Below are positions 21,001 through 27,000 of a stretch of DNA of 64,000 nt, piece by piece. Where the stretch lies: contig OZ260664.1 of assembly GCA_965285935.1 (NCBI GenBank), forward strand, positions 40,486,001 through 40,550,000, written 5' to 3'. A program made the position numbers. Each line of letters starts with the position of its first letter. Position 1 is the stretch's first letter. This DNA comes from Ophelia neglecta. Lineage: Eukaryota.

Positions 21001-24000
21001 AGTGTCTGACTTGTAATACCTGGTAATAGGAGTGGGTGTAGGAGCATATGATGCCAGTACATTGGAAGCTTATGCCATCAAATGATATTCATGTACAACT
21101 TGATAAACTAGTCAGCTAGAGTCGTAATAACACTAAATGACTACATGTGAAGTTGATAATTTACATCAGGATCTAAGCCTGATTATACTTAACATGGCCT
21201 TAGTATTAAGGTGTACAAAAATGTCAGCCCCAGTATCCTACTAAATGTAAGGCTTAACTGGGCTGGTCTGTTAGTGGACTTGTCTATTGATTAACCAGTG
21301 TCTGTAATTATGTTGGTTTAGGGCATTGAGTCCTGTCACACCCTGTTATGAGGAGGAAAAATACACAGTGAAACCTGTGTATTAAGACCCCCCCCCCCCC
21401 CAAGGAACTGGCAAGTATAGGTCTGATTAATGTGGTGGTCTGTTTATACAGGTTACTTTATAGTGAATGAGTATCATATGGTCTTCATATTAATGGTCTG
21501 AATTGGCAGGTGGTCTAAATATAGAGATGGTCTTTAAGGCAGGCTTCACTGTACTTAAGCCCAGTCATGAGAGTTTTGTATGTATACCATTCCAATGAAT
21601 GATAAGAGTGTGTGGGTCACTCAAATCTTGTTATACAGGTAACATATGTACTTCTACATTTTCAGTAACTCAAATGGTGCAACTAGAATAGCAATAGAAC
21701 ATTGTCATTTTAAAGTATTATACTTAATTTCACAAATTTCAAAGATGGACAAATAATCTAATAGATACAGTGTTACACAAATAACCTTCTCATAGCACCC
21801 AAGGTTACTGACTGATTTTGTAAAAAAAGGCAACCATGAGCACTAAAATGCTGAGTGTATACACCATACACATGATACACTTGAGATATTCAAATGGTGG
21901 TCATTCATATGTCCATTGCACAGATGGTTTATTTTATGCCATATTAAATGTATATCACTGTCAACGATAGATCAGGTTGACACAAACATATAGATATTCA
22001 GCTAATCAGAAGAGCATTTAACCAAACACATAAACCAAAATATGTTGTTCCATAGCTACTTTCAATACAATAGCATGCATAAATAGGTTTATTTATGGCA
22101 TACAATATATTCCTGCATATTTTCTCTTATAAAAAATGTTAAAAGCAGAAAGCAGTATTAAAATTTACAAATTAGAGCCCTCTGGTGAAAGGAAGAAGCA
22201 CAACAGGTACTTCTTCAGACCATCCTGCAGGCCTGAAAGGAAGGCTATTTAGCACATGTAACATGTAGCTGTTCATGTAACCATAATACTACTGATGAAT
22301 TATAATGTCCCATTACCATTAGATGACATCTGATAAAACCGTCTTGTACCAATTTATCATACATGTAACAGCTTGGATCATTTAAGGATATAATGTCCCT
22401 GTTATACTGTTTAACAAGTTTGTAAAAATATGATGAATTATGACAAAGGCAAAAGGTTATATAACAAGTAAACTTGAAGCATACACAACCATGTGCATAA
22501 TACAAGTATGCTTGTGAGTGATTTTGTTTTTTGAATACTGACCCAGACATTGGTTATTTAAAAAAGTTCCTGGTTCCTGCACATGTGTATACATTAAGTA
22601 GATGTCTCCAGACCCTACTGGCAAGTACTGTATAATCACTTGGACTGCTAGTCAATGTCTGAGCTGCTGAGCAAAACACTTGTTAGCCGTCTCAGCCCCC
22701 AAACAAGCAAAACACTTTTTTTAACTGTAAGAAGGTTTCCGGTAATGTTTGTATACAAAACTCTGGTCATGTAAACTAACATTATTTTCTGATTTACCTG
22801 CACTCACACACACTTAAACAAAGTGTATTTTTCACAGATCTGCAGGTCTGGTTCAATTCTACATGTTCTTTAAATATGGTGCCTTCATTATAACCATGTT
22901 CAAATATACATGATGTTTATTTAAACATGATGGTCACGCAGATAAAATACCATTGAGTTACAATAATATTTTCTCGGTATCTATGGGATCCACGAGTAAA
23001 CTAACAATATTGTGTGAGTGATTTTAGAGAGAGGTGTGTTTCTTGAACATGACGATTTCACCGATGATTTTGGTGCCATGTACTTGATGTCATGTAGTCT
23101 GCCAAACACTTGTCATACAGCAACAAAACAGGCCAACTCCAGTAAAACTTTCACCAAATGTAGACTGATATATCATCCCCAATAATCAGTCACTGCTTGA
23201 TGTTGTAAGGCAATGTTTAAAACTGATCTTATTATAACAGGTAATGTGCTGAATAATCAATCATTACCCATGTGTACCTGTACATGCAGTATAATTCATG
23301 ATGGTTGCCTTACCTTCAACTTGATCCCCTTCTTTATCCTTTCCATATTCTCTGTCTTTGATAAGTTGAACATCTTCCCTATGGACATTTTCCAGTAAGC
23401 CTTTGCCATATTCGGCCATGTGATTACCTTCAACCTTGACACTCTCGTTGCCTTTAAGGGCTTCCTCGTCACCATCTTCTTCAGACTTATAAGACTGTCT
23501 TGGACTAGGTGAATGGCTTAATCGTAAACTGCTGTCTACCTTGCCCTCTTTTACATGTTCCATGTAAATTACCTTTTCTTTGACATTGCCCGTACCTCCT
23601 TTTTCTCGTTCTCCAATCCAAGCTGGGGGTGAAACTGGAGCTTCGCCCTCGTCACTTACATCTGCCTTTTTCTGAATCTGCTGTGCAGCCCCTTTCACAT
23701 AGCCATCTTTATCCATTGGGGGATCATAGAGTTTGTGTGGGCTCTGCTGAGTAGCAATTCCCAGTTTGCGATCCAGTACTGAGAAATCTGGCTCAGGTGA
23801 TCGCTGCTTTTTCTGTTTTGTATCAGGATCAATGCCAAAGAATTCTAATTTAGCCCTTTCTTTATCTCTTCGCAACGTAGCACTCTTGTCCAAGGAGCTA
23901 TAATCTCCAGGTCCTTTATCATTTGGAGAAAGGTTTCCTTTCTGTACATGTCCATTTTCACCCGCCTTTTCTGGACTTCTTTCTGGTTTTGGTGGAGCAG

Positions 24001-27000
24001 CACTTTGGGTGTTAGCAGATGAAGATTTGACTATTTCTTCACCTCCATGTTCATCCCCCTTTAGACCTCCTTTTTCAGCCTTGGTTGGTGTGTAAGGAGC
24101 ATCTCCCTCCTTGTCCTTGACTTCTTTGCTCGCGTTACATCCCATTTTGAAAATTCAGTTAATTTCCAAACACTTTCCAATAAAAAGAAAACACCCCACA
24201 GTTGCACTATCCTCAGTTCAGGCGAAACGATACATCAAAAGCAGGCAAAATTCTAGGTTTTCAAAAATTTAGCAGTAACTCATAGAGTTATCCACGAGAA
24301 AGAGCTCTGTCTGTCATCTTGGAAATGTGATACTAACAGAAACTCAATTACTTCCTTAAAAACACTTCTATGCCATCACTAGTCACAAGTTCTTCAATGG
24401 CTAAAAGGAATATATAACACAACTGTAAACTGTCAATGGAAAACTGGTTAGATTTACCTCCTAAAGTCTAGTGATCAATGTTTTAATTTCTTTGTATTTT
24501 ATAAATAAAACTAATGCACTCATACTTCATGCTGAGGGGGTAAACCACATTTATTTCAGAGGATTTGTCTTCATCTACATACATGTACACTGACGTTGGC
24601 TAGAGGGTTTGTTTTCACCTACATACATGTGTATGTTCACTGATGTTGGCCAGAGGATTTGTCTTTACCTACATACATGTGTATGTTCACTGATGTTGGC
24701 CAGAGGATTTGTCTTTACCTACATATATGTACACTGATGTTGGCCAGAGGATTTGTCTTTACCTAAATGTTTATGTGTACTGGGTACTAGTACTGGTGTT
24801 CACCATAGGATTTGTCTTCCCCTATGTAGGGACTGATGTTGGCCAATAATTATAAAAGTTGCATGAGCATGTGACTAAACAGTTGGCTAGAGTGTGGCAA
24901 GTGTTATTTACAATGTTGCTTTTATCAATTTTATGTATATCATTAATTGAGTTTGTTACAAACTATTCACTTAGTAATAAACTTTGTTTGCCATGTGACA
25001 GTGAGTCAATGACATCCTTACATTTTTTCCGTTTAATACATGTGTGGGTGGTGCACTAACTGATATTTTTCACTGTATGAGTCACAAGCTGCATTGAAAT
25101 CTGCAGTCATGGATGTTTTGAAAGCTAGAACTTTATGAATTTTATTCTACTAACATTTTAGAACCCTTGCAACAAAGTTAACCTAATTACTTTTCTCGGC
25201 CATACCCCAACTGTAATACAAATCTCAAACATAACCAAACTGTAATGGAAAAGCAAAAATGACCTTCAAGGGGTGATCAAATTCAAGGACACCAAAAGTA
25301 AACTGGCCTGGACATTGCACATTTCCACTTAAATCACATAAAATGTCTCTCTTTTCTGAAACCCTTGTGAAAAAAAACCTCTTCCATATATTACCAAGTT
25401 ATTAAACTTTATGATATAGATATAGCAATAGATAGAGTGGAGCAATGGTAATATATCAAATTGATTTTATCATGACATTTATCAGCCTGGCTGGTTTACT
25501 TTTACTTGATACATTATGAACCAGAACTCCTAACATAATTGACCTCCATACAGTGTTTAGATCCAGACTTCATCTATCTCTCTCTCAGCTATATCAAAGA
25601 TAAGCTATCATTTTAGTCCTGGTCTTCTAAGCCTGCTCCAAGTCACAACAAACAATTCTTCAAGCACATTTTCCAAATGCCTTTAGAATAGTCTATTAAT
25701 TCTGATGTGTACAAATTTAGAACTAATCTTGTATTATTAAATAGATATAAATAGTTGGGTAAACTTTTGAAAATAATTCTTGTTTTATAGCCAAAACCAA
25801 ATAAAAGCATTGGAAGGGACATAGCGCTCACATATTATTCAGTCACAAATTGTACTTTTTCAGGTAATAGTTACCAAATTTATGATCAAAGAACAGCTCC
25901 GCTCATATTCATGCAGACATACATGATGTATATAGAGCAGGATACTATTACCAAGTGTTTTTCAGGCACATACAACCACAGAAATAGCAAAAAGGTGCTG
26001 GCATAGCTTCAACAAAACAACATTGCTAACCAGTTAAATGGGGCCATGTGAATTTCAATATGATTGGACCTATGTTTGCAACATAAGAGGTACATATTGT
26101 AAAACTAGATCAGATGACTCATGGACCCCTCAGACAGGCAAATCAACACAACTGGACCACTAATAGTTCCAGCATAAGTTACATCATGTATAGACAGTTA
26201 TTGAGGTTTTAGCCTTTGAGATAGGCAAGCCCAGCCATAGTGTTATTTGCAGACATGACAACTGAAGTTAGGGGATGCTGACCTCTTTTGTGCCAGGGAT
26301 ATGCAATATGATAGCAGTCAGCTAACTGACTAAACAAATTCAAATTATGAACTTAAGCCTATAATATGAACAATAGGCTGGATTTGACTGTGATTATACA
26401 TGCATATTTGCTAACAATAAAGGTATGCCACTATCAATTATAAACACAAGTGGCCGAGACCTGATGAGGGACCTGGAGCATGGACCACATTAGTCATTGT
26501 CAACTATTAAGGCCGGACTCCTCAAGCAAATTATATACAAAAATGATTACAACAGTGGGCACAGACACAAACATACATTGACAAAGTTTCTAAGATGGTG
26601 TACAAAACTGTCTGCCACTTTAATATACATGTACATGTACATGTACATGTATACATGTACATACACTAGTGCCGGAAATACACTGAACAGTCAATACTAC
26701 GGGGAATGTCAGGTTAAATCAACTGTTTTCTAGCCTATGAAAGATCCAAACGAACTTTTCAAAATTATCCTAACATTTCTAAAGGGTCTCATTGTAGCAT
26801 TTATTTCCATTAGGTTTATATATATATAAACAACTATGTGAGAGCAGATGGACTGGGTTTACACAGAATGGACCTCATGATGTGACACACCCATCAGTGT
26901 ACCAGAGGATGTTAGCATTTTAAACAGACACTAGTGAGCAGCTAGTTTTTGTACTGATACAATTGAATGAGAGTGTTTAAATTATATCTCAGGGACTGAC

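What the first reader, a model, noticed from the sequence alone, without database searches (positions are those of the whole stretch)
23264..24145. Large nested MGCNASK ORF with three in-phase donors: alternative N-terminus or standalone nested gene
The 293-aa hydrophilic ORF has many Ser-Pro sites (RSPE, SPND, SPEP, SPHK, SPPAW, SHSPSPR), a KDKEGD motif repeated near both ends, and short hydrophobic motifs (RAKLEFFG, DFSVLDRKLG). Donor-like sites at 23428 (AAG|GTAATC), 23314 (AAG|GTAAGG) and 23278 (CAG|GTACAC) are all phase 1, so any would splice in frame to exon 2. Without splicing it gives an IQ-less acylated protein. The MGC start with an EFF/LDxK motif is loosely reminiscent of C1orf21-type proteins (a hunch only).
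Basis: partly seen in the sequence, partly recalled or inferred. Interest (0 to 1): 0.65.

Follow-up and report, generated by a model that had tools for sequence, protein, structure and literature searches.

The report
Acylated alternative first exon, SPA17-like gene
A conserved 277-codon exon inside the first intron of a sperm-protein-17-like, calmodulin-binding gene probably swaps that gene's docking domain for a lipid-anchored, disordered head, making a membrane-tethered calmodulin binder of the GAP-43 kind.

Summary
The 293-codon MGCNASK ORF is real (window 24145..23264, minus strand) and far longer than chance allows. Two other records hold full-length relatives, at 84% and 59% identity. 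No other protein in 1.84 billion representatives matches, and Pfam, NCBIfam and the PDB give nothing.

It lies in the 33-kb first intron of a same-strand SPA17-like gene. That gene has an RIIa exon 1 at 44928..44775, exon 2 at 11381..11311, a two-IQ exon 3 at 10621..10443, and ten more acidic-IQ units down to 1310.

Conservation stops exactly at the donor at 23314 (AAG|GTAAGG), which my matrix scores highest on the whole minus strand. Identity to the closer relative is 33/38 just before it and 1/15 after. This donor has phase 1, like the exon 1 donor, and fits the phase-1 acceptor of exon 2.

Best reading (about 0.6): an alternative first coding exon that replaces the RIIa domain with a myristoyl/palmitoyl-anchored, Ser-Pro-rich disordered head on the shared IQ tail.

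No transcript data were available, so the junction is inferred. The window is not human.

The parts
23314..24145 (-). Coding part of the alternative first exon: Met1 to Glu277 plus the first base (G) of a split codon. The 5' end of the exon (UTR, start site) is unknown.
   Evidence: ORF. Full-length relatives P0001 and P0002. Conservation runs up to this point: 242/282 and 160/292 identities.
24125..24145 (-). N-terminal MGCNASK: Gly2, Cys3, Ser6, Lys7. This is a dual-acylation-type start (N-myristoyl on Gly2, S-palmitoyl on Cys3), inferred from the motif.
   Evidence: The first 8 residues are identical in all three proteins; the first 20 are 20/20 and 15/20 identical. The motif rule is established knowledge and recall; no lipidation was tested.
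23264..23313 (-). Start of the intron after donor AAG|GTAAGG (GT at 23313-23312), read through by the ORF for 15 codons to the stop at 23266..23264.
   Evidence: Identity falls to 1/15 and 2/15 here. The donor scores 7.3 and is the only 1 of 3695 GT sites on the minus strand to reach that score.
44775..44928 (-). Exon 1 of the host SPA17-like gene: ATG at 44928, RIIa docking/dimerisation domain, donor AATG|GTAAGT in phase 1. This is the N-terminus that the MGCNASK exon would replace.
   Evidence: Pfam RIIa E=3.1e-13. PDB 7my4_A 'Sperm autoantigenic protein 17' E=5.6e-18, residues 1-49. Sequence.
11311..11381 (-). Exon 2 (71 nt): phase-1 acceptor ttcttacag|AAGG, phase-0 donor GAG|GTAAAT. Proposed common acceptor for both first exons.
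   Evidence: One of 2 candidates in the phase-1-to-phase-0 exon scan. Sequence. Matches Sp17 residues 55-75, E=0.0026. One of 7 of 861 AG sites with acceptor score >=6, and the only one with a long open phase-1 read.
10443..10621 (-). Exon 3: two IQ motifs, phase 0 in and phase 2 out.
   Evidence: Pfam IQ E=1.8e-09, 2 stretches. Sp17 residues 81-132, E=0.0033. Sequence.
9768..9927 (-). Exon 4: first acidic-IQ cassette (DIDLDDP...KIQ), phase 2 in and phase 0 out.
   Evidence: Sequence. PDB hits: radial spoke protein 23 E=7.5e-07, PCP4 E=0.0055, Sp17 E=0.015.
1190..9134 (-). Nine further acidic-IQ units (9071, 7849, 7303, 6786, 6579, 5732, 1753, 1585, 1393) in about six or seven exons. The terminal exon starts near 1801 and the stop is at 1192..1190. 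Exon borders here are approximate.
   Evidence: Motif scan, ORF list, splice-site listing. Pfam IQ E=9.3e-18 with 3 stretches in the terminal ORF.

Best explanation
The MGCNASK ORF is the coding part of an alternative first exon, presumably driven by an internal promoter, inside intron 1 of a SPA17-like multi-IQ gene. Translation starts at 24145 and the exon ends at the donor after 23314. It would then splice to exon 2 (11381), the same exon that the RIIa-encoding exon 1 (44928..44775) uses. Both first exons end with a single G, which completes the same split codon. The result would be two proteins sharing one calmodulin-binding IQ tail. One has an RIIa docking domain, the SPA17 form that goes to AKAP and axonemal partners. 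The other has a 277-residue, mostly disordered, Ser-Pro-rich head with a myristoyl-Gly2/palmitoyl-Cys3 type start, which would tether the IQ tail to the inner face of membranes. That logic is the one described for GAP-43/neuromodulin. Shown: the ORF, its conservation, the sharp conservation boundary at the best donor, the phase match, and the identity of the host gene. Inferred: the promoter, actual use of the 23314-to-11381 junction, lipidation, phosphorylation and calmodulin binding.
For: (1) Coding. A 293-codon ORF against a maximum of 193 in 100 simulated windows. Full-length relatives of 292 and 290 aa at 84% and 59% identity, both open over the whole length. (2) First exon, not a cassette. 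There is a stop 4 codons upstream, and MGCNASKE is invariant in all three. (3) Donor 23314. Identity of window to P0001 is 33/38 in the last 40 columns before it and 1/15 after; to P0002 it is 23/40 then 2/15. It is the top-scoring donor of 3695 GT sites on the strand and of the 5 sites scoring above 3 inside the ORF. (4) Phase. Exon 1 donor, the 23314 donor and the exon 2 acceptor are all phase 1. Exon 2 is the only identified downstream exon with a phase-1 acceptor; exon 3 is phase 0 and exon 4 phase 2. (5) Same strand as the host gene. Exons 1, 2 and 3 match Sp17 residues 1-49, 55-75 and 81-132 in order. (6) No other Pfam-recognisable coding ORF in the rest of the intron: 0 of 90 ORFs scanned. 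(7) A disordered head with short helices at the conserved blocks: mean pLDDT 51.7, helices 83-102, 122-128, 153-162, 188-199, 256-266.
Against: No transcript, cap or junction evidence could be obtained. No protein in the databases joins this head to exon 2 or to an IQ region: 0 of 2562 candidates in the 'longer' search, and only P0002 in the library-wide profile search. A phase match alone has a 1-in-3 chance. P0001 and P0002 both carry the unspliced read-through tail, so at least the DNA, and perhaps an unspliced RNA, exists in that form. My splice matrices are generic and written from memory, not trained on this organism; they give the evidently real exon 3 and exon 4 acceptors only 0.2 and 0.6. 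The DNA of the two relatives could not be read, so conservation of the GT and dN/dS are untested.
Confidence: 0.6

Rival explanations
1. It is the first exon of a separate gene nested in the SPA17-like intron. It uses the 23314 donor but splices to its own short terminal exon somewhere in 23263..11382, so the product has no IQ tail.
For: Six other strong acceptors (score >=6, of 861 AG sites) lie in that interval. Read in phase 1 they end after 3-17 codons, which is what a short last exon would look like. No database protein joins the head to IQ exons.
Against: None of those six reads has any recognisable or tested conservation. Exon 2 is a proven exon of the right phase. Same-strand nesting with phase identity to the host's exon 1 is what alternative first exons look like.
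Confidence: 0.2
2. It is a standalone, intronless nested gene. The 293-aa protein is made as read, with a fast-evolving C-terminal tail: an IQ-less acylated protein.
For: All three records have an ORF closed within 10-15 codons of the boundary. P0001 sits on a 1056-nt contig that holds the unspliced form.
Against: The abrupt fall from 33/38 to 1/15 identity at a consensus donor is not how a coding C-terminus behaves between proteins 84% identical. A stop within some 15 codons is what AT-rich intron sequence gives by chance. The nearest AATAAA is 343 nt past the stop, against a background of 2.3 such hexamers per kb.
Confidence: 0.12
3. It is not a functional gene: a chance ORF, a dead pseudogene or a repeat-derived frame.
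For: No family, structure or named homologue. Only two relatives in very large databases.
Against: The length is far beyond chance. The frame stays open in a relative at only 59% identity. Conservation is blockwise with an invariant N-terminal motif. It has no similarity to the IQ cassettes of the same locus.
Confidence: 0.03

Closest known systems
GAP-43 / neuromodulin, and Drosophila igloo, called 'the invertebrate GAP43-like gene' in PMC6917273 (passages)
   Same: Same logic if the splice is real: a lipid-anchored N-terminus, an intrinsically disordered body and IQ-type calmodulin binding in one chain. GAP43 is palmitoylated on Cys3/4, and the lipid is needed for association with the inner leaflet (PMC6478813, passages).
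   Different: There is no sequence relationship: 0 Pfam families at E<=10. The anchor here is of the Gly2+Cys3 type, not Cys-Cys. The head is 277 aa and the tail would hold up to 12 IQ units rather than one. That igloo itself starts with a myristoylation signal and has repeated IQ units is my recall of Neel & Young 1994, which I did not read.
SPA17 (sperm surface protein Sp17)
   Same: The host gene is a SPA17 relative. Exons 1, 2 and 3 match Sp17 residues 1-49, 55-75 and 81-132, with an RIIa domain. The best hit, 7MY4, is zebrafish SPA17 1-75 (PMC8339350, passages).
   Different: The MGCNASK isoform would lack the RIIa domain that defines SPA17. The host gene also carries ten extra acidic-IQ units, whereas the 147-151-aa Sp17 chains in the PDB align to exon 3 only at its second IQ.
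Neurogranin / PCP4 (small IQ 'calpacitins')
   Same: The repeated cassette (acidic DIDLxDP stretch followed by an IQ) aligns with PCP4 residues 19-57, E=0.0055. In mouse, Nrgn and Spa17 lie in one locus, 'Esam/Vsig2/Nrgn/Siae/Spa17' (PMC4098794, passage). Zebrafish nrgnb has also been called spa17 (PMC9415131, passages).
   Different: Those are small single-IQ proteins from their own genes. Here the cassettes follow SPA17-type exons in one reading frame.
MARCKS / BASP1
   Same: N-myristoylated on Gly2, disordered, membrane-associated (PMC6478813, passages).
   Different: They are unrelated in sequence and have no IQ motifs.
Isoform-specific acylated N-termini from alternative first exons, e.g. 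sperm hexokinase HK1S
   Same: A unique N-terminus whose fatty acylation redirects the protein to the plasma membrane (PMC4736023; abstract in search listing only).
   Different: A different protein family. Here a whole docking domain is exchanged for a 277-residue head.

Membership tests
Dual-acylated (N-myristoyl + S-palmitoyl) N-termini of the MGC type | Met1-Gly2 at the true start of translation | tested here: met
   ATG at 24145 with a stop 4 codons upstream. The same start is found in both relatives.
Dual-acylated (N-myristoyl + S-palmitoyl) N-termini of the MGC type | Ser/Thr at position 6, no Pro or acidic residue at 3-5, Cys at 3 (rule recalled from established knowledge) | tested here: met
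   G2 C3 N4 A5 S6 K7; all are invariant in 3 of 3 sequences.
Dual-acylated (N-myristoyl + S-palmitoyl) N-termini of the MGC type | Lipid actually attached | not testable with these tools
   Needs metabolic labelling or mass spectrometry.
GAP-43 / neuromodulin | Sequence membership (Pfam neuromodulin models) | tested here: not met
   0 Pfam families at E<=10 for the ORF. That Pfam holds neuromodulin models is recall.
GAP-43 / neuromodulin | Membrane anchor and IQ motif in one polypeptide | tested here: inconclusive
   This holds only if 23314 splices to 11381. Phase and boundary support it, but there are no transcript data.
SPA17 | N-terminal RIIa docking/dimerisation domain | tested here: not met
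   The ORF has no RIIa. The host gene's exon 1 does. The MGCNASK form would be a SPA17-locus product but not a SPA17-type protein.
SPA17 | EDRFYNN-type linker and C-terminal IQ | tested here: inconclusive
   Both are present in exons 2 and 3. They are shared by the MGCNASK form only if the inferred splice is used.
   No Pfam family at E<=10. The profile search of 1.84 billion representatives returned only P0002.
IQ calmodulin-binding motif inside the head itself | Match to Pfam IQ | tested here: not met
   No IQ hit in the ORF. Only a partial AAxQI stretch at 153-157 is conserved.

The most novel reading that the evidence does not exclude
This locus keeps an undivided state. One transcription unit, with two first exons, makes both a ciliary/AKAP-docked SPA17 and a membrane-anchored, multi-IQ protein of the neurogranin/GAP-43/igloo kind. 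On this reading, the neighbouring Spa17 and Nrgn genes of mammals and the spa17/nrgnb naming overlap in zebrafish are remnants of such a compound gene. The small neuronal calmodulin buffers would then have arisen from the IQ tail of SPA17, given a lipid-anchored first exon of its own.
Probability: 0.15. Interest if true: 0.7.

Novelty: new variant of a known kind. Interest (0 to 1): 0.5.

Why it matters
If the splice is used, one gene sends the same calmodulin-binding tail to two places by exchanging its first exon: to axonemal or AKAP partners through RIIa, or to membranes through a lipid anchor. That would be a clean natural example of retargeting by alternative promoter. It would also add a lineage-restricted, unannotated protein head, with 3 known sequences and no family, to the short list of acylated, disordered calmodulin tethers. 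It gives a testable link between SPA17 and the neurogranin/PCP4/GAP-43 IQ proteins, whose origin outside vertebrates is poorly documented. None of the titles and abstracts listed by my searches describes such a link. If the splice is not used, the finding is still a conserved, unannotated nested gene.

Tried and rejected
- **Homologue searches.** The 'longer' search gave 0 of 2562 candidates and the 'shorter' search 0 of 56, so there are no fused or fragmentary forms. The profile search returned only P0002.
- **Family and structure libraries.** Pfam, NCBIfam and PDB sequence searches of the ORF found nothing.
- **Origin from the locus's own cassettes.** BLASTP E values were >=3.7 and >=20, so this is rejected.
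- **Fold search.** Not run, because the model is low-confidence (pLDDT 51.7).
- **Cluster look-up.** The sources and names of P0001 and P0002 therefore stayed unchecked.
- **Protein atlas.** It holds neither the ORF nor P0002.
- **DNA of the relatives.** Conservation of the donor GT and dN/dS therefore stayed unchecked.
- **Polyadenylation signals after 23264.** The nearest is at 22921, at background density, so this is uninformative.
- **Synteny with the mammalian Siae/Spa17 arrangement.** The upstream neighbour here is UFC1, not SIAE.
- **Complex prediction.** Not used, because IQ-calmodulin is a textbook pair and the head has no proposed partner.
- **Spliced model.** It was searched exon by exon only.
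- **Paper supplements.** None were consulted.
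Full report
**1. The observation**

On the minus strand, 24145..23264 is an ATG-to-stop frame of 293 codons beginning MGCNASK. An in-frame stop lies four codons upstream of the ATG, and the start context is caaaATGG.

It is the second-longest open frame among the 47 frames of 90 codons or more in the window. In 100 first-order-Markov simulated windows the longest frame averaged 146 codons, with a maximum of 193. Chance therefore does not explain it.

The protein is hydrophilic: K 12%, G 11%, E 11%, S 8%, D 8%, P 6.5%, with net charge -7.

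The window has no N, 33-47% G+C and no Rfam match at gathering score. I take it to be non-human. The SPA17-type exon described below has about 33 of 49 residues identical to the zebrafish chain by my count of the printed alignment, and it also differs at many positions from the one Sp17 chain (9fqr_Ic) whose alignment was printed.

**2. It is a conserved coding sequence with no known family**

The word-indexed search found 2 proteins among 772 candidates. P0001 has 292 aa and lies on a 1056-nt contig. P0002 has 290 aa and lies on a 44,948-nt contig. In alignment A1 they are 84% and 59% identical to the window's protein and start with the same eight residues.

Searches for longer forms found 0 of 2562 candidates, and searches for shorter forms found 0 of 56. 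A profile of A1 run over 1.84 billion representatives returned only P0002.

Pfam at E<=10, NCBIfam and PDB sequences at E<=10 gave nothing. This also disposes of the C1orf21 hunch, as far as these tools can test it.

AlphaFold2 on A1 gives mean pLDDT 51.7. Of the 293 residues, 167 are below 50. Short helices sit at 83-102, 122-128, 153-162, 188-199 and 256-266, which roughly coincide with the best-conserved blocks.

The second KDKEGD is not kept.

**3. The surroundings: the ORF sits in intron 1 of a SPA17-like multi-IQ gene on the same strand**

| Exon | Window coordinates (- strand) | Content | Phase in / out | Evidence |
|---|---|---|---|---|
| 1 | 44928..44775 | 51 codons, RIIa domain, donor AATG\|GTAAGT | start / 1 | Pfam RIIa E=3.1e-13; PDB 7my4_A 'Sperm autoantigenic protein 17' E=5.6e-18, residues 1-49; sequence |
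| MGCNASK exon | 24145..23314 | 277 codons plus one base, donor AAG\|GTAAGG | start / 1 | |
| 2 | 11381..11311 | 71 nt, acceptor ttcttacag\| | 1 / 0 | Matches Sp17 residues 55-75 including the EDRFYNN block, E=0.0026 |
| 3 | 10621..10443 | Two IQ motifs | 0 / 2 | Pfam IQ E=1.8e-09; Sp17 residues 81-132, E=0.0033 |
| 4 | 9927..9768 | First acidic-IQ cassette | 2 / 0 | PCP4 E=0.0055, radial spoke protein 23 E=7.5e-07 |

The 7my4_A entry is the zebrafish protein according to passages of PMC8339350.

Nine more acidic-IQ cassette units follow, down to 1310, and the stop is at 1192..1190. I did not fix the exon borders in that part.

Upstream and divergent lies a UFC1 gene: 3 of 126 ORFs scanned match it, at 47069-50087 on the plus strand.

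In the rest of intron 1, 100 ORFs of 60 aa or more were listed. I scanned 90 of them and none matched Pfam at E<=0.001. I left out the other ten, which lie in tandem repeats at 27.7-28.1 kb and 29.5-30.2 kb.

All searches of the gene model were made exon by exon. I made and searched no joined sequence, so the full-length isoforms themselves were never tested.

**4. Where the exon ends**

Identity between the window and P0001 is 242/282 up to the Gly codon split by the 23314 donor, and 33/38 in the last 40 columns. It is 1/15 after that point. For P0002 the figures are 160/292, 23/40 and 2/15. The three tails also differ in length.

The break coincides with AAG|GTAAGG. A generic donor matrix, written from memory and not trained on this organism, scores it 7.3. 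That is the only one of 3695 GT sites on the minus strand to reach that value, and the best of five sites above 3 within the ORF.

The 23278 site scores 1.5 and lies in the unconserved tail.

Some phase-0 donor-like sites also exist, at 23660 (GAT|GTAAGT) and 23573. The residues that create them are not kept in the relatives.

**5. Where it goes**

The 23314 donor leaves one base, G, as the exon 1 donor does. Exon 2 supplies the other two bases of that codon.

Between 23263 and 9000, 7 of 861 AG sites have an acceptor score of 6 or more. Six of them run into a stop after 3-17 codons when read in phase 1. The seventh is exon 2.

Among the identified downstream exons, only exon 2 accepts phase 1. 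The frame then stays open through exons 3 and 4 into the cassettes.

This is good circumstantial evidence for a 23314-to-11381 junction, but it is not proof. A phase match has a one-in-three prior. My acceptor matrix gives the evidently real exon 3 and exon 4 acceptors only 0.2 and 0.6. No database protein shows the join.

**6. Mechanism proposed**

- *Shown:* a conserved coding first exon, a conserved start motif, a boundary at a strong donor, phase identity with the host's exon 1, and an RIIa-plus-IQ host gene.
- *Inferred from established knowledge (recalled rules for N-myristoyltransferase substrates, and the dual acylation of G-alpha-i/o and Src-family kinases):* Gly2 with Ser6 and Lys7 is a myristoylation signal, and Cys3 next to it is a palmitoylation site.
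- *Inferred:* an internal promoter gives a protein whose lipid anchor and disordered, proline-directed-kinase-rich head replace the RIIa domain. The IQ tail would then be held at membranes rather than at AKAP or axonemal sites.

Passages of PMC6478813 state that acylation of GAP43, MARCKS and BASP1 is required for inner-leaflet association. The abstract of PMC3589724 (search listing) states that neuromodulin and neurogranin are unstructured and bind calmodulin by their IQ peptides. Passages of PMC8339350 describe SPA17's D/D domain, its heterodimer with ROPN1L and the link to radial spokes.

The most conserved block, residues 93-112 (19/20 and 18/20 identities; helix 83-102), is basic and hydrophobic. 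It may be an effector or binding helix, but that is speculation.

**7. Rivals**

| Rival | Weight | Main points |
|---|---|---|
| Separate nested gene using donor 23314 and its own short last exon | 0.2 | Six strong acceptors in the interval would give such an exon |
| Intronless standalone gene | 0.12 | Contradicted by the boundary at 23314. The nearest AATAAA is 343 nt past the stop, at a background density of 2.3 per kb |
| No function | 0.03 | Contradicted by ORF length and conservation |

**8. Comparison and novelty**

In working logic the proposed product resembles GAP-43/neuromodulin and Drosophila igloo. Passages of PMC6917273 call igloo 'the invertebrate GAP43-like gene'. Igloo's own N-terminus and repeated IQ units are my recall of a paper I did not read.

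It is not a sequence member of any known family. It fails the defining RIIa feature of SPA17.

Alternative first exons that add an acylated N-terminus are known, for example HK1S (PMC4736023, abstract in listing only). I therefore rate it a new variant of a known kind.

The bolder reading is that SPA17 and the small IQ 'calpacitins' were once one gene with two first exons. Three things are compatible with it:
- The PCP4-like cassettes.
- The zebrafish nrgnb/spa17 naming overlap (PMC9415131, passages).

Nothing here tests that reading. None of the titles and abstracts listed in my seven paper searches describes an acylated alternative first exon at a SPA17 locus. Subscription journals and supplements were not searched.

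**9. What stayed unchecked**

- Atlas look-alikes (sequences not held).
- All transcript-level evidence.

Noticed in passing
window 9866..1310 (-): There are ten near-identical acidic-IQ units (DIDLxDPEVEKAAxKIQ...) after the two IQ motifs of exon 3. That is far more than the solved Sp17 chains of 147-151 aa could hold. The units resemble PCP4 residues 19-57 (E=0.0055) and the IQ repeats of Chlamydomonas radial spoke protein 23. Most cassette exons look phase 0 to phase 0, so they could be skipped freely.
   Followed up: partly
window 10442..10195 (-): If the weak exon 3 donor (TAG|GTACAT, score -0.2) is not used, the frame stops after 11 more codons, and AATAAA/ATTAAA hexamers follow at 10210 and 10195. 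That would give an RIIa + IQ protein of about the size of vertebrate SPA17. The hexamer density is at background, 2.3 per kb.
   Followed up: no
window 47069..50087 (+): Three exon-sized ORFs match UFC1 (Pfam PF08694, E=2e-11 to 1.5e-22), covering profile positions 1-138. This gene is head-to-head with exon 1 of the SPA17-like gene about 2.1 kb away, so the two may share a promoter region.
   Followed up: partly
window 59116..57140 (-): A 658-codon open frame, the longest in the window, is Ser/Lys/Arg-rich and has no Pfam match at E<=1. It lies in the G+C-richer right end of the window. It was not pursued.
   Followed up: no
window 27675..28107 and 29523..30211: Two long tandem-repeat arrays inside intron 1 give spurious open frames on both strands, for example repeated ATHRAELATHRAKL. 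I left them out of the Pfam scan.
   Followed up: no
window 23689..23661 (-), residues 153-161 of the ORF: An AAQQIQKKA stretch has A153, A154, Q156 and I157 invariant and a predicted helix at 153-162. It looks like the first half of an IQ motif without the basic second half. Pfam IQ does not detect it.
   Followed up: partly
window 24391 (-): A good acceptor-like site (ttccttttag|CC) lies about 245 nt upstream of the ATG. If the RIIa exon 1 spliced there, the frame would stop, by my hand translation of the sequence, after about 17 codons, before the ATG. It could instead mark an untranslated upstream exon junction.
   Followed up: no
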